Source of the DNA: the human T2T-CHM13v2.0 reference genome, Homo sapiens
Strand: one strand, 5' to 3'
Length of the DNA stretch: 64,000 nucleotides
NCBI RefSeq assembly: GCF_009914755.1
Contig: NC_060934.1
The notes under the pieces are model-generated. The model was not told the DNA's origin and did no database searches. It saw only the letters and a program-made list of their open reading frames with translations. Position numbers and translations under genes: made by a program. This document shows, one piece after another, positions 4,564 through 63,497 of this stretch; position 1 is the stretch's first letter, and each line of letters opens with the position of its first letter.

Positions 4564-5120
4564 TGAAGAAAATCAAAATATTTTACCCCAAAATATATTT
4601 CTCTGACATATTTTGAAATGACTGCCACAGGGCCAACAGACACAAGTAGCCCTACAAAGCTGTCTTTTGTGGGGGAAATTTGTATCTGTAAAGAATCTCC
4701 ATTAATGCAGCCTTGCCTTCCCTTTCTAAGCCTTTCCCAGATCTTAGAGAGATTAAACAGAGTCTGACATCTTTAAAGGTCTGAAAAGAGATAGTTAACC
4801 ACCTATTCTTTCTGAGGGCTGCTATCTATGAGTCTTCATCAACATAACAAGGACACCTTTGCTAGCCAGGCCTCTTCCTTTCTCCCTCCCAAAACCTGCC
4901 TTGCCACTAACACCTGTTTTACCAGCCTAACCTATTTTTGACCATACTCTGAGCCCACATTCTTTCTATAACCTCAGGGTGGTGTATAAGCTTCTGTACC
5001 TCATTGGGGGTGGGGTCTTCATTCTGAAGGTGTGCATACATGTTAAATAAATTTGTGTGCCTTTTCTTCTATCAGTCAATCAGCCTCATGTCTGTGATTT
5101 TTCAGCCAACCTTCAGGTTT
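4564..5120 (+). mobile_element. Solo ERV1 LTR (LTR48/LTR49/MER34-group-like)
   Basis: Begins tgaagaaaatcaaaatattttaccccaaaata; has gtataagct TATA and aataaa; homologous to the LTR at 52802. Confidence 0.7.
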
Positions 5121-5516
5121 TATGCTAGGAACCAGGACACAACCAAGAAGAACCCAGAAAAAGAAATCAAACAGAATGATGCCAGATTATTATAATAAGC
5201 CTTCAGAAATAAAAGACACTCAAAATAGCCCTGATAGTTTAAAGTCGTTCCTTGTAGTCCTCAGTATGTTTTTTTGTGGTTTGTAACCTAAAGCCTCTAT
5301 GCATCTGTAAATACCCACATATTATCCTTTTGCTTTATAAATGCAATTACTGCATATAGCTGCTTCAAGAAACACTAGCTGCCTCCAAATTGATTTCACT
5401 TTCCTGGTAAGGTTTGATTCTCTTGTTACCATTCCCACCGTAACTCAGTTCCTAGAGCAGAGAAACTGTAAGCACAGAAAATATCTAAAAATTGTAGGAA
5501 GCAAACGCATGTTACA

Positions 5517-6255
5517 GTGGTATAATAAAAAATATATTTGATTTTGTACGGTTCCTGGCACAGAACTTCTGAGCCCCTGTAATTTCCTAGTGACAAGAGT
5601 GTCTTTTGTTATGCATAAAAACCCCCATTAATCACACCTGAGTTTATGCTAATGCATGACTTAGGGTAGGGTCCCTGGATAGCCTCAGGATGGGACTGGT
5701 CACCAGAAAGACCAAGTGATTAGAGGGTTGGAATTTCAGCCAGGACCACCAGCCTCCAGGAAGGGGCTGGAGGTTAAGCTCTATAAAATTCGAACAATGA
5801 AACTTGATGAATTTCCAGGTTGGTGAACATATCCACATGCCAGGGAGTACAGTGCACCCCAACTCCATGGCAACAGAAGCTCCTGCCCTCGGCACCCTTT
5901 CAGACCTCACCCTAGGTCCCTTTTTATCTGGCTCCTCATCTGTATCCTTTGTAATATCCTTTATGTTAAACTATAATGTTTCTTTGAGGTTTGTAAGCCA
6001 TTATAGCAAACTGTTGAATATAAGGAGAGGGTTATGGGAACCCTCAATTTATAACCTGTTGGTCAGAAATACAGGTGACAACCTGGCACTTGCAATTGGC
6101 ATCTAAAGTGGGAGGCAGTCTTGTGGAACTGGATCCTTAATCTGTGGGGTCTCTGCTAATCCCAGGCAGTAAGTTTCAGAATTAAATTGTAGGACTCTCA
6201 GTTGGTGTCCAGAGTATTGGAGAATTGGTTGGTGAGGGGAAAAAAAACAAACATT
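5517..6255. mobile_element. MER21-family LTR
   Basis: tataataaaaaatatattt...ggttcctggcacaga...; gacaacctggcacttgcaattggcatct; ggtgtccagagtattggagaattg. Confidence 0.75.
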
Positions 6256-7105: not shown

Positions 7106-7364
7106 CAGACATAAGGCTTTTGAAAGCTACCTTTATAGAGAGACATAGAGCATTATTTTTCTAACTTCCCAAGTAAATTTAATGTGACTTATAGTTAAGG
7201 ATTTGCTGTTAGGGCAGAAAACCTTTTTTATGGTAATAATAGGAACTAGTCTACCACATTACCATGCACAAAATAATTCAATAAGTATTATTCATAAATG
7301 CAGATTCATTAAGAGCTTCAGCTATCTAATGCACTCACTTGACCATTTCCTTCTTTAGCAATGA

Positions 7365-7685
<321 letters not shown>

Positions 7686-13690: not shown

Positions 13691-15363
13691 CAGCCCCTCC
13701 CATCACAGGCCTGGAGGCCCAGAAGCAAAAAGTGGTTTTGTAGGATTTTGCATCTTAAAAAAAAATACTAGGCTAGACAGTTACTAAGAGAGAAGTAATA
13801 AGTTTGGAAAATAGAGCCCAAATACTTACAACACAGAGAAATAAAGCAAAAAACGTGGACAGAAGTGGGGTGTTTAAGTCTAAATCTTGTTGGTAACGGA
13901 TAGGGCAATCTAACCTTAACGAATGCTGTGACACCAGAAGACAGGCTGGCTGCTGGCTTAATTCAAATACCCTGAGAAGAAAGCACTGCTAAATGCAAGC
14001 TGGTCCCCATTTCAAATTGAACTTGGTGATCTCACCCACCTGCTTCATTGTTCAGGTTCCAGAAAACCCTCTCCACACTTCTCCTTCTCTTGTCTTGGCT
14101 GTGCTGTTAGTCCTATCTGCTGCTTCTGCTTGATACTTTAGATGTCAAATCCATAGGCTTGAGTCACAAATACAAAGCCATAAATTAACCTTCCTTTAAA
14201 TTCACCTAAAAGGATAGACTGCCCTAAATATGTCCATGAATGCTGGGTTTCAGGGCTGGATTCCATGGACCATGGATTTGTCCCATTGCAGCAGTTCTCA
14301 GTTTCATCTAACATAAAGAGACTTGTAAGGTCTTATGTGAACCAGCTCCTATAGTTTTTATGTCCCACATTTTTACTCTCTTTAATGAGTTTAAAATGTT
14401 CTAACCAGGCATACTTGCCTCTGAAAGAAATTCGGTGCCCTTATTTAGGAAGTCAAATGTATTTCTTTTTTTTTGCAAGGCTGGCACAATATAAAATGAC
14501 CCAAAACTTGGAGTCAGTCACATAAGGAAGGGCCAGGCCACATTTTAGAAGGAAAAATCAAAGAAGGCAAGAGGCAGCATCTGGGATCTATCAGTCTGCT
14601 TGCCAAGAAGAGGCAGGGAGCCTGCGAAGATGCAGAGATGCAGGATTATCAGCATTAGGACCAAGAGCATTGAATTGTTCTGCTTTGGAGAGGCTCAGAA
14701 GATGTTACAGTGGCAGCAGGGTATCAGAGCCAACAACACGCATCACTTTAGGACAGGTGACTGGCATCCCAATAAGAGTCAACAGGCACCCAGCAGGCAT
14801 GCCCCTGGATTACTCTTCCTTGGCAAAAACAGGTGTAATTAATGTATCACAAAAACTTCACATAATCCCAATATATATGATTCAGGGAGCATGAGGAGTG
14901 ATAGGGAAGTTAGGTATACCTGGGTATACCCATTGTTCAAGATAGGCTTTTTTGGTGGGAAAACTGAAGTTCCCAGCCCAGTGCTCCAGGTAGCCATTGT
15001 CAATCAAGCAACACAACTGTACTATATGATACTAAGTTGCCAACCAGGATGGATCTAGCTCTAATCTGATAATGTAGAAAAATACTACTAGCAAGTAAAT
15101 GTGACTTTAGATAGAATACCTCTTTGAAAATCAAAGCAAAGAAAATGTATTTTCAATTGGAAAGGGGAATTCTAAAAATTGAAAACATTCCTTATACTTT
15201 TATTGTATTTTTGAGTTTTAAAAATGATTTCCCATGCATGTTCTCATTTTATACTTCCAACAATTTTGTGGTAGGTACTGAAGTGTTATCTCATTTTGTT
15301 GATAAGTAAACCAAGAGACAGAAAGTTTCCATGACAAGACAAAGCTTGGAAGATTTAGCAAAT

Positions 15364-18859: not shown

Positions 18860-18976
18860 TCTCTCTCTCTGTCTGTCCTTCCCTACCTCCCTTCTCTCTC
18901 CCTTTTCTCTCTGTCTCCTCTTTCTCTCCCTCACACACACACACTCACACACTCACAAATACACACTCACACACAT
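18860..18976. repeat. CT-rich and CA-rich microsatellite
   Basis: Seen directly. Confidence 0.85.
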
Positions 18977-19702
18977 GCAGTTTAACCCCCACAGCCACTG
19001 AGAGGGAAAGAGCTGACTCTTCCACCCAGTGTCCACCCACACACCTGAAACCTTCCGACAACCTGCCTCTAGTATCTGAATTCTTGGTTAATGAGCTCTT
19101 GGCTTCAGCCTCAAAAGAAAGAATCAGACATTTTGTAAATATGATGACTTTGAATAAAACTTTTAGGACCTCGAACTCTTTTCCTGAATGCCAAAGCCAC
19201 TACCTAGTCACCCCTCAGCTGTGCCCACAGGTTCCTATAGAGAGTCTGAGCCCCAGCCATTCCTGACCCCCAACCTCCTGGGTGATTCTACATTTTCAAA
19301 TAGAAATTTCAGTGTTTCCCTTAGAATTCGGAATCTTTCCAATTTATCTTTCTAAGCTATAGTTTGCCCCCTAAGATATATATATTTAAATTTTTTAAAG
19401 AAAATTTAGTCATCTCAGTCTGTTTTAGTCCAGGCTTCATACAGAAGAGTTTCAGCCTGAAATCACTGAAAAATCTGTGTCCCATAAAAATGACAAGCCA
19501 CTCAAGACCTTGCATGGTCCCAGAGTACCATCTAGTGACTAAAAGTTGAAATGACGGCCTCCAAATCTTTACTGACACTTTTTCCTGCAAAAAGCCATGC
19601 AGAGAAAGCATGCTTGTTCTTGCTCTCATCAGAGTATCAGATTAGGTGGTCACAGCACCCACGTGCATGGTGAACTATGTGGGGTGGCTGTGGGAGTTAA
19701 AC

Positions 19703-20065: not shown

Positions 20066-21518
20066 ATCTCAGTCTACACAGTAATCCTAAACATCTGTAT
20101 AAATAAAATCCTGTTTCCAGGGACTTGGACTGCGCCATTAACTCAAGGCACCTTTCACTAAAATGAGGGCTGATTGTTGCAAGGAAGATGGCTGAGGCTG
20201 TGCAGATGGATCCAAAGAAACCCATCAGTACCGTCAAATGTGACCAAGACCTTAGAAGATTTTTCCTCAGCAACCATAGCACACTGCTCAGAAAAACATA
20301 CAGGAGCCCTTTTACAAAGGCAAGCCCAACAAAATCAGCCAAGACTGGAGCCCGATAGGTTAGCCTCAGTTCCCAGACTGCAAGGAATTAAAAGAAAACA
20401 AACATGTAAATCCCAACAATCTAACTCCCCACAGCCACTGAACTACAGCCAGTATCCATGAAGCTGGTTAGCGGGCTTGTGGTTAATGGCTTAGTTTTTC
20501 AGATACTTATCCAGGACACTCTTCACAACTCCTTGGTACTCCAGATTATTTCAGGCCAATTAAAAGTCCCACTTCTCTTCATCCCACCTGTGATTATGAC
20601 CTCCATGCAACAGAGGTACTTCTAGCAATGATAAGCCAGTTTTAAAAGATGCCCTCCTCCTAAGACTTATTGTTCCATTTAAAGCTTAGCTGCTCCTAGT
20701 AACATAGATGCCCTAGAAATGGGTCAGTTGTGTTTTTCCTGGAAGAACCTGCCTGAATAGTTCACTCACTCCTGTGTGCTCCAGGCAGGTCTAGAGCACA
20801 TGCCCTATTTGCAGAAGAGATCAGTTCAGATGTTCATTTGTTGTAACCTATTATATGTCTGTCACTCTGCTAGATTCTCAGGCTCGATGGTGACCAAGAC
20901 ATCCCTCTTCCCAGAAATCCAATGGAAGAGAAAGCCAAGATGAAAGAAAAACAAATCTTTAGAACTGTGTAATAAGATTTTATTTGTGAGATATAATGAA
21001 ATTATATGTGCTTCATACTCTGATTAGCACGTAAGCACTCATTAAATATTAGGCTCATCAAAAATCTTAATTTAACATATTTTACCAAAATTTAAAAGAG
21101 TGGGGAAAGACAGGGCCTCCTTCCAGCCCCATTTCCCTCAGTAGTGGCCCATTCTCTCAGTAGCCCAGGGGTTTCAACTGCCTCTTTCCTGTGTCTCCTG
21201 TATGGCGCCAGTGGCCTGGTCCTTTAGTTCTGTCTCTACAGTGTCTCTTTCACCTCTTCCTACCTGTTTTTGCTGACTCCTGTGAAATTCAGTGGCACCC
21301 CATTACCCTCTAAATCAAATGAAATCCTCACCCCAACATCCAAGGTCGCAGTAAAGCCACATTTTCAGTCCCATGGCCCACAACTTCCCCAACCATCCTC
21401 TGCCTCAGCCAAACTGGATTCCCACTAATCCCAAACCTGCCTCCTGCTTTACTCTTGCTTTGCCACTACCGGGAATCCTCTTCCTGCCATCTTAACCAGC
21501 AGAGGTTCTATTTTATTC

Positions 21519-52097: not shown

Positions 52098-52676
52098 TAA
52101 AGGGGAAAAATCACCCACATAGGTTCTTAGTTGGAATGAACTCCTGTTACAAAAGACAGATTAATTAAAAATGAACTCCTGTTACAAAAGACAGATTAAA
52201 AAAAGTTTATTAATATGGATATTTCATTCATATATATATATATATATATATGTATATGAAATACCCAGAGAATGAGTAGTTTTCCAAGAGGTGGCTCTGA
52301 ATTCCCACTTATATAGCATCTTCAACAAAGAACAGTGAATTTTTAGAGAAGTAACAAGGCAAAGGCAAAGAACTTTGAGCCTCTAGGGACAGCAACTTGA
52401 GGAAAGGTAAATTAGTCCCAAATAAAGGCTAATTAGTAGAGCCTGTTAATATAAATTCCTCTGGAATGTTCTCCGGTCCAATGAGGGTTTGAAGTCTTCA
52501 GTGTTTAACCTTTGTTCTCCCCAGTGAAAGAGGGTGCAAGATACCTTTGTAAATCCATGTTATATTTTTAGGCAAATAGAGAGAAGGCAGAGAACTTCCC
52601 TGAATCTGCTTCTTCCTAATTGTCTTCTGCTCAACAATCCTTCATATTTAAGGGCAGTATATCCTGGTCTCCCACA
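52098..52676 (-). mobile_element. MER34/MER39-group solo LTR
   Basis: Reverse complement begins tgtgggagaccaggatatactgcccttaaatatgaagg; contains a ~30-bp tandem duplication at 52136-52200. Confidence 0.7.
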
Positions 52677-52801: not shown

Positions 52802-53135
52802 CGAAGGAAGCCAAAACATTTCACCCCAAAATAGGTTTCCTTGACAAGGAGATTTTCTCTGCATTGACGCAGCCAGATCTTCTTCGAGGGCTTTCTTTTA
52901 TCTGATCATGGAAAGATCAACTAAGAGTCTGACACCTTTAAAGGTCTAAAAGAAACATATTACTATATATTCTCTCTGAGAGCTGCTCAGAGAGGTTTCA
53001 TCTACATAACAAGACCATGTTTGCTAGTCAGCCCTCCTCTTTTTCCCCTCCCATGACTACTTGTTTTGTCATTATAACCTGTTTTGCCACAATCCAAGCC
53101 CCAATTTTTCTTGTAACCCTCAAGATGGTAGGTAT

Positions 53136-53183
<48 letters not shown>

Positions 53184-53242
53184 GTGTGTGTGTGTGTATA
53201 TATATATATGTGTGTGTATATATATGTGTGTATATATATGTA

Positions 53243-53275
<33 letters not shown>

Positions 53276-53434
53276 GCTTCTGAACCCCATTGAGGGGTTG
53301 GGGTAATCACTCCGTGGTTCTCTCCCGTGTGTGTTAATAAATGTGTATGACTTTTCTCCTATGAATCTGCCTTTTGTGAGTTGATTTTTTGAATCTTCAA
53401 AGGGTAAAGGTGAAGTTTTCCCTTGACCACTACA
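52802..53434 (+). mobile_element. ERV1 solo LTR (LTR48-like) containing a compound (TG)/(TA) microsatellite
   Basis: gaaggaagccaaaacatttcaccccaaaata ... ttttcccttgaccactaca; TSD ACCA. Confidence 0.72.
53132..53277. repeat. Compound (TG)n/(TA)n microsatellite
   Basis: ~145 bp of alternating purine-pyrimidine. Confidence 0.95.
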
Positions 53435-55261: not shown

Positions 55262-55269
55262 GTTTTTTA

Positions 55270-55300
<31 letters not shown>

Positions 55301-55587
55301 GAGACAGAGTCTCACTCTATCTCCCAGGCTGCAGTACAGTGGCTCAATCTCACCTGACTGCAACCTCCACCTGCCAGGCTCAACCAGTTCTACTGCCTCA
55401 ACCTCCTGAGTAGCTGGGACCACAGGCTCAGGCCACCATATCTGGCTGATTTTTGGGGGTTTTTTTGCTTGTTTGTTTGTTTTAGTAGAGACAGGGTTTC
55501 ACCATGTTGGCCAGGCTGGTCTCAAACTCCTGGCCTCGTGATCTGCCAACCTTGGCCCCCCAGAGTGCTGGGATTACAGGCATGAGT
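55262..55587 (-). mobile_element. Alu (J-like), slightly 5'-truncated
   Basis: Dimer with (TTTA)n tail; ends at gcatgag. Confidence 0.92.
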
Positions 55588-56754: not shown

Positions 56755-57535
56755 TCAGTAGTGTGCTGAGAAATGTTTAACCACTGTCTGGGGATTGTAG
56801 GGGGGGCAGGTAGGTCCTGATGTGTGGCACTTGCCAGTCTCTATGCTGTAAATACTCCCACCATGGATGACTTCAAACTATCAGTATGACTGCACTGGGA
56901 GTTGAAGAAGAGATCCTCAGTAACACACCATCATATATAGCATTTCTGCCGTACATGTGGGGGTCTGTCCTGCAGACCCCAGCTGCACAGCAGATGAGAC
57001 ACGTACTCAGACACCGATATTCAGTGAAAGAGCAGGCCAGGGGGCTGCCGGCACCAGGAGCCAAAGAGAGTTTGCTGCCCGTCTAAGCTGGTAATGCTTA
57101 CATTTATTTAGTACAGATTTAATTGACAGAGGCTTTGAGTCAACACACCTGTGGGTAATTAACCTGGTCACCTCCCCCCGACCACGGAGAGGGCCATTCT
57201 GCCCTCGAATGATCAAAGGTTGATTTAGGACCACATGAGTAAACAAGCTATTTAGATAAACTCCTCTACATTCCTATGTATCTGTGCCCTAAGCTTTTAA
57301 GAGAATTCAGCTGCCTTCAGCCAAATAGTTTATGCAAACCCTCAGGCCTTCCAAGAGGGTTTGTGTTTATTTCCTATAATTTTACAATTTCTCCCACCAT
57401 CCTGACTGAACCCCCACACATACAGATACAACAGATGTAAAATAACCTCAGCACAGATAATAAAATTTAGTATCTTATTAAAATTTAGTAAGACCATAAG
57501 GAAGTAATGAATTTTGACTATATATTACCTTTGTT
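56755..57535. mobile_element. MER63-like hAT fossil interrupted by LTR22
   Basis: cagtagtgtgctgagaaatgtttaac; tgtaaatactcccaccatgg. Confidence 0.6.
56956..57418 (-). mobile_element. LTR22 (HERV-K HML5) solo LTR
   Basis: Reverse complement begins tgtgggggttcagtcaggatggtgggagaaattg; TSD cgtaca/cataca. Confidence 0.8.
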
Positions 57536-57549
57536 TTAATATGACTTTC

Positions 57550-58175
57550 ACATTTATAGCAGCTTTATTCATAATCACCAAAAAATGGAAACAACCTGAA
57601 TATCCTTCATTGGGCGAACAAACTGTGGGACATCCATAAAATGGAATACCACCAAAAAGCAGCAATATGGATTAGTCTCAAAGACGTTGTACTCAGTGAA
57701 AGAAGCCAGTCTCCAGAGGTCATGTTATGCATTATGACATTTATGTGACACCTTGGAAAAGGCAAATCCATAGGGAAGGAGAACAAATCAGTGTTTGCCA
57801 GAGGCTGGGGTAGGGTGAGGGCTTGCCTACAAAGAGGAAGCATGAGGGAATATTTCAGGGTGATGGAACTGCCCTGGATTCTGACTGTGGTTATGGTTAC
57901 ATAAAACTATACATGTGTCAAAACTCATATAACTGTACTTCCAAAAAAGTTAATTTTATGGTATTTTTAAATGAAACAAAGAAATGATAGACAATGGAGA
58001 CTCAGAGTGATGAGAGGGGTAGGAAGCGGGTGGATGATGAGAGGATGCTTGGTGGATACAATGTGTGTTACTCCAGTGATGGATGCACAGAAGGCCCTGA
58101 CTTCACCACAATGCAATATATCAGTGTTGCAAAATTGCACTTGTACCCCATGAATACATACAAATAAAACAATGT
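57550..58175 (+). mobile_element. Two L1 3'-end fragments (older L1M ~57550-57970; L1MA/PB ~57985-58175)
   Basis: atttatagcagctttattcataatcaccaaaaaatggaaacaacc; ccctgacttcaccacaatgcaatatatc. Confidence 0.75.
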
Positions 58176-59450
58176 TAACTTAAATTTTAAAAAGTATTTT
58201 TAAATTTAAAAAAATTAAGTGACAGATATAAACTTGCATATATTTATATTATATATAATTTTATTTATACATAACATTTAATATACATGTTATATATAAT
58301 ATATATTACATACATAACTTTCTCTTAAAAAGTGCTTTAAATTTTCTATTTAGGTTTCTGCCAGAAAAGCTGCTTTGAGGAACTCTGCCACATCTGTGTT
58401 CTCTTAGCCTGATTTTCCATCTCTAAAAGAAGAGGATCAGTCTAGAGCAGTGACTTTTTTTTCATTCATTTTTCCTCCCAAATGGTGTCTCTGGCCACTC
58501 CCTTTGTGGAAGTGGGTGTGTTTGGAGAGAAAGTGCATTCAGCCTCCCCTGGGCTCTGGAGCCACAGCTTCACATCAATCAGAGCATTTGTACTTTTGTT
58601 TTGTCTCATATATTGTCTGCAGACCTCCAGATTCCAATAGCTGATCCCAAACTGCATCCCTAGGCATTCCAGGAGTTTGAACCCTCCCAATTCCAGGGCC
58701 TACTGCTGAGGCCAACTCATTTGTCCCTTGGGCAAGTGCTCCTGTGGCTTGCAGTGGTTAGCCAGACCAGGGAACTGGCTCTGATGGTGAGTGATTCTAA
58801 AGAAAACACTTTGAGATCCAGCTGGCAGGAGCTCCTTGCTTTACAACCTTTGGATTAAACACAATGAGAACTCTGAAAAGGCTGCAAAATCTAGTCCTCC
58901 CTGATGGAGGGTCTGAAAGGATCTTAAACCATTTTTTCCCCCTCCCACAGGATGATATTTGGAAGCACACTTTATAAAAATAAAGGGATATGCACAGATG
59001 GGGAAAATGCTGTGGATGGGGATGAGTGTGCTTCCCCAGGACCGGCAGAGCCCAAGATTATCATTAATAACAAGAACTGCTCTTTAAGCATGTGCCATGT
59101 TCCAGGTCCACTGCTAGCGATCAGTTCATCCTCACAACAACGCTGTGAGAGAAGGGCTGTCATTACTTTGACAGGTGAGGTCATCGGGCCTCCAGGAGGC
59201 CCCATATCAAATGCAATGCAAGTGACTGAGTTGACAGAGCTGGGTCCCAGCCCACAGCTGCAACCTTCCAAGCCAAGGCCTGCAAAATAAAACCCCAAGG
59301 ACTGAAAACAGGCCTGCCCTTCTCTCAGTACATGCCTCAGACAAGGAGACTTAAGCCATTTTTCCTCAAAGGCTGGTGGAAGGTAGCTGCAAACACCTTG
59401 AGACCTTGTCACCTGACAAAACATTATTTTTAAATGTTATACAGTTGATT

Positions 59451-59863
59451 TGATACGGTTTGGATCTGTGTCCCCACCCAATCTCAAGTTGAATTGTAAT
59501 CCCTGGTGTTGGAGGTGGAGCCTGGTGGGAGGGTGACTGGACCACTGGGGAGGAGTTCTTATGAATGGGTTAGCAACATCTCCTCAGTGCTGTTCCCCTG
59601 ATAGTGAGTTATTGTGAGATCTGCTTGTTTAAAAGTGTGTAGCACCTCCCTCTCTCTTTCTTCTTCCTGCTCCTGCCATGTAAGATGCCTGCTCCCACTT
59701 TGCCTTCGGCCATGACTAAAAATTGTTTGAGGCCTCCCCAGAAGCAGAAGTCGCTATGCTTCCTGTATAGCCTGCAGAAGTATGAGCCAATTAAACCTCT
59801 TTTCTTTATAAATTACCCAGTGTCAGATGTTTCTTTATAGCAATGTGGGAACAGATTAGTATA
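59451..59863 (+). mobile_element. MSTA solo LTR
   Basis: tgatacggtttggatctgtgtccccaccca ... gagccaattaaacctctttt. Confidence 0.9.
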
Positions 59864-60510
59864 GGAATACTTTCTTCAAAAGCTTTCTTATGCTTAAGCC
59901 CTTCTAGGAAACCAAAGTTGGGCTGCTCTGGTTAGAGATGAGAGCAAGGGTGACCTGAGGTCGTCTGAGACTCCCTGGGCTCCCAGAGAACCATTTGAAG
60001 GCCACGTATTTTGTAGGTTGGCTCTCATTGTGAGAGATACCAGAGGGCCACGGTGCCTACGGCTCTGTGGTTTTGGGTTCCAATGAATGAGCTAGGATTC
60101 TGGCTGACTTGCTCCTGGGTAGACAGGCTGGGCAGGAATGGGTAGACAGGCTGGGCAGGGCTGTAATATTCCAGGCCTAACACATGGCTTGGGTGCTGCT
60201 GGCCGGTCCCCCTGAGTGGGCACCACCTGCTTCACCTCCCTGACCAGGCACTAGTGGTCATGACTTGGCACTCTCAGGGTAGGAAACTAATATTCATCTT
60301 CTATTTAGTGAGTTTTACTCTTCAAAGATATGTGGACTATAAGGTCAAAACCTCCAGTAACTCTCCCTTTTTTCCTTCCTATTATAGGAGACATCATGTG
60401 AGTTTCTGAATAAACAAAAGTATTATACAAGCTCAAGTTCAGATCTTGGTGGAAGAACAACAGCCGACCAGCACCTGGGACCCCGCAGGCAGGGCTGGCC
60501 AGGATGCCCC

Positions 60511-60991
60511 TCGGTTGGGTTACCCATTAAACCGACCTCCTTCTCATGGACCTCAGGGATCACACCACCCCTCAGGGAGCTGACTATGTGCGCAATATTC
60601 TTGCCAAACCACTGGAACTCCTGGTAGATGCAGGGCTCCCCAAAGCCATTGTCAGGCTGATGGGTGTCCGGCAGGGGCGCAGCTGCTACTTCCCTGGGAG
60701 AGGGCAGAGAGGGGCAGCCCTGCCTCGCGACCATGAATGTGATCCGCGATGTGGCCCAGCAAGTTGCGCAAGTGCGAGACGCGCGCGGCGGCCACAGGCA
60801 CCTGAGCATCCTGAACGCCACTGGAAGATGGCGTCCAACGCCCCCACTGAGACATTGACGACAGTGGTGATACGATTACCGGACAGCATGAGCGTGTTTC
60901 TGGGCCACCCCTTGAATATACAGGTTGTTGGTGATCTGTGAGAGGTCAGTGGCCAAGGCACTGGACAGGAGGGCCCCGGGAGTGTGGTCAC
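60511..60991 (-). pseudogene. Intronless DUSP18/DUSP21-like dual-specificity phosphatase pseudogene
   Basis: Minus-strand blocks in shifting frames are colinear with DUSP18/21 as recalled: VTT (GTG at 60991, equivalent to MTA), LSQITNNLYI (60944-60915), NTLMLSGNRITTVVNVSVGALDAIFQ (60898-60821), GVQDAQVPVAAARVSHLRNLLGHIADHIH (60819-60733), QPDNGFGEPCIYQEFQWFGKNIAHIVSSLRGGVIPEVHEKEVGLM (60659-60525). Compare DUSP18 LSQITKSLYI / NKLMLSSNQITMVINVSV / QVPVAD..IADHIH / RPNSGFWEQLIHYEFQLFGKNTVHMVSSPVGMIPDIYEKEVRLM. It has frameshifts and no HCxxGxSRS motif. Confidence 0.92.
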
Positions 60992-61200
60992 CCAGGCGGA
61001 GGTTCGGCGGCCAGCGAGGAGCGAGGTGCGCATCTTTCTACGGGGGCTCAGCCCACCGAAGCTCTCATCCGTCAATGGGCGGGTTCGTTCAGCAAGCAGC
61101 CACTGCGAAGTCTTCGGAAGGGGTTTGCGGGAGAGAAGACGGGTCATGATCTTGGAGCCATAAGTCCTGCCCGCCCTGGGCTCTGGTTTCCGTGGCAGGC
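60660..61200. promoter_or_regulatory. CpG-island-like GC-rich segment over the 5' half and upstream of the DUSP pseudogene
   Basis: Dense CpGs (e.g. gcgcgcggcgg 60781-60791) in an otherwise CpG-depleted window; GC box gggcggg 61077-61083; half-CRE cgtca 61070-61074; tgcgca 61027-61032. Confidence 0.55.
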
Positions 61201-61829
61201 AGGAATCAGCAGTGCCTGGTCTTCGGAAAAACCCAACCTGGCTTCTTGGCTTCCCTGCCTGGGCTCACCCAGTTACACACCCACAACTGCCACTGGCCCC
61301 ACTGCAGCCCTCTTTGAAAAGTCTGCATTTAATTTTGTTGAGCATTTAAAAGAAAACTTGGTAATCTCCTCCTATTTCTTACGGAGTTTAAAATGCAGTT
61401 CACTATCTCCTCTAAGCACAAATAGAAGAAAATCCATTTCGTCTGCCATATTAGATATTAAATTCAGAACAAAACTACTGGAAATGGGAGCTTTTAGCAT
61501 TGGAGGGCATCTTAATGGAAATGCCCTGTCTGGAAAACTGTAAGATGGGGTACACCCCAGTTGCCTGGAATCCTTTAAGTAATGACTATCTAAACAGCTC
61601 TAGGAGATTTAAGCCCCAAAGGCCAAATGAAGAACTCCCCAAAAAACAGTCTGGAAGTCAGAGGAGATAATGTCCTCAACTACTTGGATGGCTTTACCGA
61701 TTTTTCAAGAGACATCTATGTCTCCATAAAAGCCAATGCAGTGACTAATCGCTCTCAAGTGTCTAGAGAGTTCCTCACTCACTACTGATGTTACTGCTAT
61801 TATTTAGGATTCGTGATTCACCAAACCAC

Positions 61830-62851: not shown

Positions 62852-63497
<646 letters not shown>

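What the first reader, a model, noticed from the sequence alone, without database searches (positions are those of the whole stretch)
60511..60991. Disabled DUSP18/DUSP21-family retrogene, possibly a lost third paralogue rather than a dead-on-arrival copy
Seen: stitching minus-strand frames gives a nearly full-length DUSP18/21-like protein that the ORF track hides across several ORFs. It mixes DUSP18-like (LML, NVSV, QVPVA, FGKN, EKEV) and DUSP21-like (NRIT) residues, judged from recalled proteins. Many substitutions are conservative. No poly-A or TSD is evident and CpGs are retained. Inference: this pattern fits an old intronless gene that evolved under selection and was later lost (a unitary pseudogene) better than a recent retrocopy.
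Basis: partly seen in the sequence, partly recalled or inferred. Interest (0 to 1): 0.8.

Follow-up and report, generated by a model that had tools for sequence, protein, structure and literature searches.

The report
Ancient dead DUSP18 retrocopy, CpG-rich head
This is an old, broken, intron-less copy of the DUSP18 phosphatase gene made from its messenger RNA, an ordinary kind of genomic fossil whose only unusual trait is that its front end looks like a CpG island.

Summary
The DUSP18-like reading on the minus strand is real (tblastn E 3e-10). It is only the coding part of a 3.8-kb processed pseudogene, window 61321-57510.

Retrocopy hallmarks:
- The copy carries DUSP18's 5'UTR exon joined to the coding exon. 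The parent's 3,379-bp intron is missing.
- It runs through about 3 kb of 3'UTR to an AATAAA and an A-rich remnant.

Damage: the start codon is GTG, the catalytic loop is deleted, and 12 copy-specific indels lie in the coding part.

Age: its 3'UTR branch is 0.27 substitutions per site, longer than that of DUSP21, which afrotherians and xenarthrans also have. It is therefore old, not recent.

Evidence against a protein-coding past:
- Codon positions 1+2 changed as fast as its own UTR.
- Amino-acid retention equals a neutral simulation.
- Coding indels are as dense as UTR indels.
- No third clade appeared among the 70 named proteins treed, of 120 listed.

Evidence for one: my codon model gives omega 0.36-0.41, below 1.

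Most CpGs are new, not retained, with a weak-to-strong (A/T to G/C) substitution bias. Verdict: an ordinary, apparently unannotated, ancient pseudogene. The lost-paralogue reading is about 20% likely.

The parts
61062..61321 (-). Copy of DUSP18's upstream 5'UTR exon
   Evidence: Window 61234-61076 aligns to DUSP18 gene positions 14808-14981, which lie 3.4 kb upstream of the coding exon in the parent. A weaker extension, 61321-61253 to DUSP18 14712-14779, scores 35 against a shuffle 95th percentile of 28.
60992..61061 (-). 5'UTR part of the coding exon; the exon-exon junction lies at about 61061
   Evidence: The parent's donor (GAGAG|GTAAAA) and acceptor (CTGCAG|TTTTCC) flank a 3,379-bp intron. 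In the window the two exon ends abut.
60989..60991 (-). GTG where the parent has its ATG start codon
   Evidence: Four-way nucleotide alignment.
60511..60991 (-).
   Evidence: tblastn; alignments. 12 copy-specific indels, 7 of them frame-shifting. One premature stop and loss of the parental stop.
60695..60705 (-). Site of the 41-nt deletion that removes the catalytic HCxxGxxR loop (DUSP18 residues about 104-117)
59844..60510 (-). 3'UTR-derived stretch, part 1
   Evidence: Window 60647-59864 aligns to DUSP18 18891-19603 (65% over 795 columns, E 4e-38), colinear with the DUSP21 flank.
59445..59843 (-). Later insertion of a high-copy repeat of about 410 bp
   Evidence: Absent from DUSP18 and DUSP21 at this place. 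8128 first-look candidates in the genome, copies 80-83% identical. That it is a solo LTR is my guess only.
58311..59444 (-). 3'UTR-derived stretch, part 2, including a 230-nt tail now missing from human DUSP18
   Evidence: Window 59282-58528 aligns to DUSP18 20074-20853. Window 58530-58314 aligns to DUSP21 7234-7464 (164 of 209) and to a chr20 copy.
57991..58310 (-). Later insertion: AT-rich low-complexity DNA plus a younger high-copy repeat
   Evidence: Breaks the colinearity with DUSP21 and chr20. Window 57990-58180 has 953 first-look candidates at 78-87% identity.
57550..57990 (-). Ancient interspersed-repeat fragment (L1-like by recall) that formed the end of the ancestral DUSP18 3'UTR; AATAAA at 57569-57564
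   Evidence: 730 first-look genome candidates at 67-85% identity among the 42 non-self matches listed. Colinear in the chr10, chrX and chr20 copies. AATAAA is shared by chr10 and chr20.
57510..57549 (-). Degenerate A-rich remnant of the poly(A) tail
   Evidence: Starts about 15 nt after the AATAAA. The chr20 copy has an A-rich tract at the same place.
60600..61250 (.). CpG-island-like stretch over the 5'UTR and coding remnant
   Evidence: Window 60600-61199 has GC 0.58-0.65, 38 CpGs and observed/expected 0.53-0.83, against 0.17 for the whole window. It is the only sizeable such stretch in the 64 kb; 60695-61480 passes GC>=0.55 and o/e>=0.65.

Best explanation
The finding is the coding part of an ancient processed pseudogene. 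A spliced, polyadenylated DUSP18 mRNA was reverse-transcribed and inserted on chromosome 10 by the LINE-1 machinery, around or before the radiation of placental mammals. That is about when the X-linked retrogene DUSP21 arose from the same parent.

Shown:
- The parent's intron is absent.
- The copy is colinear with the 5'UTR, coding sequence and 3'UTR.
- A poly(A) signal and an A-rich tail remnant are present.
- The start codon, catalytic loop and reading frame are lost.

Inferred:
- It never served as a protein-coding gene for long, if at all, and has drifted neutrally.
- Its 5' 600 bp later acquired or kept a CpG-island-like composition through A/T-to-G/C-biased substitution. This suggests, but does not prove, that the stretch is unmethylated in the germline.
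For: Retrocopy:
- Window 61234-61076 matches a DUSP18 exon that lies 3.4 kb upstream of the coding exon in the parent. In the window it lies 60 nt from the rest, and the exon ends abut (intron 3,379 bp).
- Homology runs through the 3'UTR to an AATAAA and an A-rich remnant. A 5'-truncated chr20 copy has these at the same place and also has a 15-bp target-site duplication.

Disabled:
- GTG stands for ATG, and 41-nt and 30-nt deletions are present.
- 12 copy-specific indels lie in the coding part, 7 of them frame-shifting.
- No Pfam hit in 4 of 4 frames tried.

Old:
- Three-point branch lengths over 1370 3'UTR sites: copy 0.268 (0.233-0.306), DUSP18 0.169, DUSP21 0.186.
- DUSP21 proteins are present in elephant, manatee, sloth and armadillo.

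Neutral:
- Copy branch at codon positions 1+2 is 0.258 (confident blocks) or 0.355 (all columns), against 0.268 in its UTR. DUSP18 has 0.018-0.033 against 0.169.
- Model dN is 0.27-0.34.
- 42 of 78 conserved residues are kept against 41.3 +/- 4.4 in neutral simulation (P 0.49).
- Indels: 12 in 573 coding columns against 21 in 1577 UTR columns. A functional period of 30% or more of its life is rejected at P 0.024.
- None of the 70 named proteins treed (of 120 listed, of 322 found) forms a third clade.
Against: - My own GY94 branch model gives omega on the copy's branch of 0.36 (113 codons) or 0.41 (151 codons). This is above the background of 0.11-0.13 but below 1 (2dlnL 4.3 and 6.5). It is also lower than all of 100 position-blind neutral simulations in each column set.
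- Third positions changed somewhat more than first and second positions: 34% against 21-24% in confident blocks (P 0.07), and 35% against 28-30% overall (P 0.30). I attribute this to fast third positions, since dS is also about twice the UTR rate in DUSP18 and DUSP21. A short early coding life would give the same signal.
- A CpG-island-like composition in a roughly 100-million-year-old copy in a CpG-poor desert is not expected of inert DNA.
- No target-site duplication was found.
- No other mammal's DNA could be examined.
Confidence: 0.75

Rival explanations
1. Lost third paralogue. The retrocopy was expressed, encoded a working phosphatase under purifying selection for a substantial time in early placentals, and was disabled later in the lineage leading to humans.
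For: - Branch omega is 0.36-0.41, below 1, and below all 100 neutral simulations in each column set.
- The sister retrocopy DUSP21 did become a gene and also has a CpG-rich 5' half (coding part o/e 0.89).
- The copy is full-length, including the 5'UTR exon that sits at the edge of the parent's CpG island.
- Its own 5' half is CpG-island-like.
- In Carelli et al. 2016 (PMC4772013, passages read), CpG islands not tied to other genes were 5.7-fold enriched at promoters of robustly expressed human retrocopies.
Against: - dN equals the copy's own UTR rate.
- Residue retention and BLOSUM score equal the neutral expectation.
- Coding indels are at least as dense as UTR indels. A functional fraction of 0.3 is rejected at P 0.024, and 0.5 at P 0.003.
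- Start codon, general-acid Asp73 (role recalled) and the catalytic loop are all lost.
- No third clade among the 70 named proteins treed.
- Most CpGs are new rather than retained.
Confidence: 0.2
2. The copy derives from DUSP21 (its mRNA or locus), or DUSP21 derives from it, rather than both being independent retrocopies of DUSP18.
For: - Both lack the intron.
- Both share a 3' tail that human DUSP18 lacks. Identity there is 164 of 209, higher than elsewhere.
- Placement with DUSP21 is not rejected (deltalnL 3.2, AU P 0.47; codon lnL -1419.8 against -1418.0).
Against: - The same tail is present in an independent chr20 copy with its own target-site duplication, so it belonged to the ancestral DUSP18 mRNA.
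- The copy's homology to DUSP18's 5' exon seems to reach about 96 nt further upstream than DUSP21's.
- At sites where DUSP18 and DUSP21 differ, the copy follows DUSP18 at 26 against 5 (position 1) and 12 against 7 (position 2).
- Residue 157 is Q as in 96% of eutherian DUSP18, not K as in DUSP21 and non-eutherians.
- The best trees place the copy with DUSP18.
Confidence: 0.1
3. The 5' half is now a working non-coding element: a germline-unmethylated orphan CpG island acting as a promoter or other regulatory site, exapted from the dead retrocopy. This can hold together with either reading above.
For: - Window 60600-61199 has 38 CpGs and o/e 0.53-0.83, against 0.17 for the window. It is the only such stretch in 64 kb.
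- In the coding part, 56 A/T-to-G/C changes (30% of A/T sites) stand against 32 G/C-to-A/T changes (18%).
- The bias also holds at sites invariant in three paralogues (38 of 118 against 17 of 104) and outside CpG contexts (46 of 169 against 25 of 140).
- The 3'UTR part of the same copy has lost its CpGs.
Against: - RefSeq lists no gene and no functional element here; the only enhancer in the window is at 4621-5121 (hub annotation).
- GC-biased gene conversion alone could give the substitution bias.
- The stretch only just meets the stricter island thresholds.
- No methylation, transcription or conservation data could be consulted.
Confidence: 0.3
4. DNA-level (segmental) duplicate of DUSP18 rather than an RNA-mediated copy.
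For: None beyond the sequence similarity itself.
Against: - The 3,379-bp intron is precisely absent.
- Homology starts within the 5'UTR exon and ends at a poly(A) signal with an A-rich tail.
- No homology extends beyond these ends.
Confidence: 0.01

Closest known systems
DUSP21 (X-linked, intron-less paralogue of DUSP18)
   Same: - Lacks the DUSP18 intron between the 5'UTR exon and the coding exon.
- Carries the same long 3'UTR-derived flank.
- Similar age.
- CpG-rich 5' half.
   Different: - DUSP21 keeps an intact 190-aa frame with the catalytic motif.
- It has 1 in-frame coding indel against 12 in the copy.
- Its positions 1+2 branch is 0.15-0.17 against 0.26-0.36.
- It has orthologous proteins across placental orders.
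Ordinary LINE-1-mediated processed pseudogenes
   Same: - Intron-less and colinear with mature mRNA including the UTRs.
- Poly(A) signal and A-rich tail.
- On another chromosome than the parent.
- Multiple frame disruptions, and later repeat insertions.
   Different: - Older than most recognisable ones (about 32% raw divergence from the parent).
- No detectable target-site duplication.
- CpG-island-like 5' half with A/T-to-G/C-biased substitution.
Retrocopies with CpG-island promoters (Carelli et al. 2016, PMC4772013; passages read)
   Same: A CpG-rich stretch not tied to another annotated gene overlaps the 5' end of a retrocopy.
   Different: There the islands were defined experimentally and the retrocopies were robustly expressed. 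Here expression and methylation are unknown and the coding frame is destroyed.
5'-truncated DUSP18 3'UTR retrocopy on chromosome 20 (G000:C20:16787171-16788059, found here)
   Same: Same tail unit of the ancestral DUSP18 mRNA, same AATAAA, and an A-rich tail.
   Different: - Only about 0.9 kb, with no coding part.
- Keeps a recognisable 15-bp target-site duplication.

Membership tests
Processed pseudogene / retrocopy | Parental introns absent, exon ends abutting | tested here: met
   The 3,379-bp DUSP18 intron is missing. Donor-side and acceptor-side exon sequences are contiguous at about 61061.
Processed pseudogene / retrocopy | Colinear with the mature mRNA, including 5' and 3' UTRs | tested here: met
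   Colinear blocks run from 61234 (perhaps 61321) to 57550, interrupted only by two repeat insertions.
Processed pseudogene / retrocopy | Poly(A) signal and poly(A) tail at the 3' end | tested here: met
   AATAAA at 57569-57564 followed by a degenerate A-rich stretch at 57549-57510. The chr20 sister copy has the same signal and a clearer A-rich tail. The tail remnant is degenerate.
Processed pseudogene / retrocopy | Flanking target-site duplication | tested here: inconclusive
   The best direct repeat is 7 bp (CAAAATT at 61337-61331 and 57516-57510), with P 0.80 against shuffles. This is expected at this age.
Active dual-specificity phosphatase (Pfam PF00782 type) | Catalytic HCxxGxxR loop | tested here: not met
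   A 41-nt deletion removes DUSP18 residues about 104-117.
Active dual-specificity phosphatase (Pfam PF00782 type) | Uninterrupted reading frame with a start codon; recognisable domain | tested here: not met
   GTG for ATG, 7 frame-shifting indels and an in-frame stop. 0 Pfam families at E<=1 in 4 frames.
Unitary pseudogene / once-functional retrogene | Fewer replacement than silent changes on its own branch | tested here: inconclusive
   Codon-model omega is 0.36-0.41 (below 1, 2dlnL 4.3-6.5). But dN equals the UTR rate and residue retention equals the neutral expectation.
Unitary pseudogene / once-functional retrogene | Coding part protected from indels relative to the non-coding part of the same copy | tested here: not met
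   2.09 events per 100 coding columns against 1.33 per 100 in the 3'UTR. A functional fraction of 0.3 or more is rejected at P 0.024.
Unitary pseudogene / once-functional retrogene | Intact orthologue in some other species | tested here: inconclusive
   Of 322 proteins at E<=1e-20, only the best 120 were listed. The 70 named ones were put in a tree and all fall in the DUSP18 or DUSP21 clade. The other 202 proteins and all unannotated genomic DNA of other mammals were not seen.
CpG island | Length, GC content and CpG observed/expected thresholds | tested here: met
   Window 60695-61480 (785 bp) has GC 0.55, 39 CpGs and o/e 0.65. The core at 61000-61199 has o/e 0.83. It passes only narrowly.
CpG island | Unmethylated in the germline | not testable with these tools
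   No methylation data are available here.

The most novel reading that the evidence does not exclude
The chr10 copy was a third expressed DUSP18-family retrogene of early placental mammals. It was born in the same burst as DUSP21, with a promoter seeded by the parental 5'UTR exon that it carried. Its protein function was lost early in the lineage to humans. Its 5' half survives as a germline-unmethylated orphan CpG island, possibly still a promoter, and some other mammalian lineage may retain an intact copy.
Probability: 0.15. Interest if true: 0.45.

Novelty: new member of a known kind. Interest (0 to 1): 0.18.

Why it matters
- The human genome holds many thousands of processed pseudogenes, so one more old one changes little.
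- It adds an apparently unannotated DUSP18-derived locus. RefSeq lists no gene in the window (hub annotation), and my literature search on DUSP18/DUSP21 pseudogene terms found 0 papers.
- Together with DUSP21 and a truncated chr20 copy, it shows that DUSP18 mRNA was retrocopied at least three times.
- It preserves the ancestral DUSP18 3'UTR end, which used a poly(A) signal inside an old repeat and which the human parent has since lost.
- The one feature worth a follow-up is the CpG-island-like, GC-gaining 5' half. If it is unmethylated and transcribed, it would be an example of a dead retrocopy turned into an orphan CpG island.

Tried and rejected
- Pfam scan of the four longest minus-strand frames gave nothing at E<=1, so family membership had to be shown by tblastn with the paralogues.
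- Literature: 'DUSP18P', 'DUSP21P', 'DUSP18 pseudogene', 'DUSP21 pseudogene', 'DUSP18-like' and 'DUSP18 retrocopy' returned 0 papers. Searches pairing DUSP21 with retrogene terms gave no paper on its origin in the 15 and 12 papers listed. One paper (PMC5737092, one passage read) only lists DUSP21 among testis-biased duplicates.
- The supplements of Carelli et al. 2016, which may list this retrocopy, could not be read.
- I first took the distal matches between the window (57970-57554) and the DUSP21 flank for independent repeat insertions. The chr20 copy showed that they belong to the ancestral mRNA's tail.
- Target-site duplication search: nothing significant.
- In the 74-row protein tree the copy sat on a branch of length 2.16 beside two bat DUSP18 proteins. 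I treat that placement as long-branch noise.
- The clade tests on that 74-row tree did not finish in time. I replaced them with a 23-row set, where none of three placements is rejected (AU P 0.46-0.59).
- Clade-diagnostic residues were too few to place the copy: 6 positions in 89 usable columns.
- The segmental-duplication reading was rejected by the exon junction.
- A broken, frame-shifted remnant gives them nothing to test.

Full report
What is there.

The window is human chr10 (hub note). On the minus strand, tblastn with the human DUSP18 protein finds three colinear pieces in three different frames. The protein was read from the genome's own chr22 locus.
- DUSP18 residues 37-62 match 60898-60821 (13 of 26 identical).
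- Residues 64-94 match 60816-60724 (15 of 31).
- Residues 142-185 match 60659-60525 (25 of 45, E 3e-10).
DUSP21 (chrX) and DUSP14 (chr17) match more weakly (17 of 45; 16 of 41, E 0.002).

It is more damaged than 'nearly full-length' suggests.
- The start codon is GTG.
- A 41-nt deletion removes the HCxxGxxR catalytic loop.
- A 30-nt deletion removes residues about 132-141.
- There are 12 copy-specific indels, 7 of them frame-shifting.
- Asp73 is Ala. Its role as general acid is recalled, not tested.
- The parental stop is gone.
Pfam sees nothing in the 4 frames tried.

It is a processed retrocopy.

The finding is only one eighth of the element.
- Upstream, window 61234-61076 aligns to a DUSP18 exon that lies 3.4 kb before the coding exon in the parent (72.6% over 124 columns, E 2e-11; full alignment).
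- The parent has a GT donor and an AG acceptor around a 3,379-bp intron. In the window the two exon ends abut at about 61061.
- Downstream, homology to the DUSP18 3'UTR and to the DUSP21 flank continues for about 3 kb. It is interrupted by two later repeat insertions: 59843-59445 (8128 genome candidates) and 58310-57991 (953 candidates for its repeat part).
- The last 1.2 kb is a tail unit shared colinearly by this copy, DUSP21 and a newly found chr20 locus.
- The tail unit has three parts: the end of the present DUSP18 3'UTR, 230 nt that human DUSP18 now lacks (an Alu sits at the break), and a fragment of an ancient high-copy repeat (730 candidates; L1-like by recall).
- In both the chr10 and chr20 copies the unit ends in GAATAAAGCTGCTATAA followed by A-rich sequence. 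The chr20 copy also has a 15-bp target-site duplication.
So the ancestral DUSP18 mRNA ended at a poly(A) signal inside that repeat, and the chr10 copy is a full-length retrocopy spanning 61321/61234 to 57510. Its own target-site duplication is not recoverable (7 bp, P 0.80). DUSP21 shows the same intron-less junction.

Age and relationships.

Three-point K2P branch lengths over 1370 aligned 3'UTR sites are 0.268 (0.233-0.306) for the copy, 0.169 for DUSP18 and 0.186 for DUSP21. Named DUSP21 proteins exist in elephant, manatee, sloth and armadillo as well as boreoeutherians. Among the 120 listed proteins, platypus, marsupial and reptile sequences group as DUSP18-type. A copy with a branch at least as long as DUSP21's is therefore probably as old as the placental radiation. 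This assumes similar neutral rates; X-linkage may slow DUSP21.

The order of branching is unresolved.
- Codon lnL is -1418.0 (copy with DUSP18), -1419.8 (with DUSP21) and -1420.0 (DUSP18 with DUSP21).
- In a 23-row protein set, none of three placements is rejected (AU P 0.46-0.59).
- Small hints favour origin from the DUSP18 line. The 5' homology is longer than DUSP21's. Q157 matches eutherian DUSP18. At sites where the two paralogues differ, the copy follows DUSP18 at 26 against 5 and 12 against 7 for positions 1 and 2.
- The 'mix' of DUSP18-like and DUSP21-like residues is what a copy of their near-common ancestor should show: 71, 70 and 63 of 151 identical to the three consensus sequences.

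Was it ever a gene? The evidence conflicts and I report both sides.

For a coding past:
- A GY94 F3x4 branch model that I wrote gives omega on the copy's branch of 0.36 (113 codons in confident blocks) or 0.41 (151 codons).
- That is above the background of 0.11-0.13 (2dlnL 6.2-7.1) and below 1 (2dlnL 4.3 and 6.5).
- None of 100 neutral, position-blind simulations in either column set reached so low a value.

Against:
1. The model's dN for the copy is 0.27-0.34, the same as the copy's own 3'UTR rate of 0.268. The low ratio comes from a dS of 0.73-0.84. dS also runs about twice the UTR rate in DUSP18 and DUSP21, so third positions here seem to mutate fast.
2. Distance branches by codon position are 0.29, 0.23 and 0.37 with wide overlapping intervals. 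Positions 1+2 give 0.258 in confident blocks and 0.355 in all columns.
3. At columns where the DUSP18 and DUSP21 residues agree, the copy keeps 42 of 78 against 41.3 +/- 4.4 in 5000 simulations (P 0.49). The BLOSUM sum is 194 against 186 +/- 29 (P 0.41). That null takes its rate from the coding part itself, so it tests the pattern of change, not the rate.
4. Copy-specific indels number 12 in 573 coding columns against 21 in 1577 UTR columns. DUSP18 has 0 and DUSP21 has 1 in-frame. If coding indels were barred during a functional fraction f of its life, f=0.3 is rejected at P 0.024 and f=0.5 at P 0.003. The omega estimate would need f near 0.7.
5. All 70 named proteins placed in the tree fall in the DUSP18 or DUSP21 clade, including those named 'DUSP18-like'. 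No species has two members in the DUSP21 clade. Limits: 202 of 322 hits were not listed, and no other mammal's DNA was available.
I weigh this as about 0.75 for a copy that was dead at or soon after arrival and about 0.2 for a real coding period.

The CpG-rich head.

Window 60600-61199 has 38 CpGs with observed/expected 0.53-0.83, in a window averaging 0.17. The copy's 3'UTR part is depleted like its surroundings. It is the only sizeable island-like stretch in the 64 kb. These CpGs are mostly not retained.
- 19 of 24 in the coding part are shared with neither paralogue, 5 are shared with DUSP21 and 0 with DUSP18.
- None of the 10 CpG positions common to DUSP18 and DUSP21 survives.
- The copy's coding part shows 56 A/T-to-G/C changes (30% of A/T sites) against 32 G/C-to-A/T changes (18%).
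- The bias also holds at sites invariant in three paralogues (38 of 118 against 17 of 104) and outside CpG contexts (46 of 169 against 25 of 140).
Either GC-biased gene conversion or life as an unmethylated island would do this. High CpG o/e favours the latter, but methylation cannot be tested here. DUSP21's coding part is even richer (o/e 0.89), and the parental 5' exon lies at the edge of DUSP18's promoter island. So the retrocopies may have carried a seed of that island. Carelli et al. 2016 (PMC4772013, passages read) report CpG islands at 103 of 200 novel promoters of robustly expressed human retrocopies.

Verdict.

This is an ordinary, very old processed pseudogene of DUSP18 that RefSeq does not annotate (hub note). 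I found no paper on it. Catalogues such as GENCODE and the unreadable supplements may list it. A selected past is not demonstrated.

Noticed in passing
L032 (G000:C20:16783000-16792999), reverse strand positions 4935-5880; chr20 about 16787171-16788059: A 5'-truncated retrocopy of the end of the ancestral DUSP18 3'UTR, about 0.9 kb long. It has AATAAA, an A-rich tail and a 15-bp target-site duplication (GAAAAYTGCATTGRAG).
   Followed up: partly
L024-L026 (DUSP18, chr22), gene-oriented positions 20853-21035: Human DUSP18 lacks the 230 nt and the old repeat fragment that end all three retrocopies (chr10, chrX, chr20). An Alu with a short flanking repeat (AAATGCTT) sits at the break. The parent's 3'UTR end therefore appears to have changed since the retropositions.
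   Followed up: partly
L027 (DUSP21, chrX) 4688-4952 and coding part from 4953: DUSP21 carries a copy of DUSP18's upstream 5'UTR exon about 180 nt before its ATG, with no intron, which shows its retrogene origin directly. Its coding part has 33 CpGs (o/e 0.89) against 17 (0.42) in DUSP18.
   Followed up: partly
Proteins P0046, P0059, P0064, P0067, P0068, P0069, P0074, P0095: Several proteins named 'DUSP18-like' or 'DUSP18' (slow loris, tarsier, colugo, sifaka, woodchuck, aardvark, tree shrew, horseshoe bat) fall in the DUSP21 clade. A wombat 'DUSP21', a turtle 'DUSP21' and a tuatara 'DUSP21' fall with non-eutherian DUSP18. The automatic names do not track orthology.
   Followed up: partly
window 61146-61140 and the DUSP18 5'UTR exon: An upstream ATG in the motif GATCATGAC is shared by the DUSP18 5'UTR exon and the chr10 copy; DUSP21 has GTG there. 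It may be an upstream open reading frame of DUSP18. In the copy it opens a 192-codon stop-to-stop frame, which I take as a by-product of GC richness.
   Followed up: no
window 62999-63328 and 55263-55586: Two Alu-like elements, matching many Alus in the DUSP18, DUSP21 and DUSP14 loci at 70-84%.
   Followed up: no
window 53132-53276 and 52198-52258: Simple dinucleotide-type repeats that cross-match simple repeats in the DUSP18 and DUSP14 loci.
   Followed up: no
Tree: Rooting the DUSP18/DUSP21 protein tree on human DUSP14 puts the root inside eutherian DUSP18. This looks like a long-branch artefact (DUSP14 end branch 1.95), so I used reptile, monotreme and marsupial DUSP18 as the reference instead.
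   Followed up: partly
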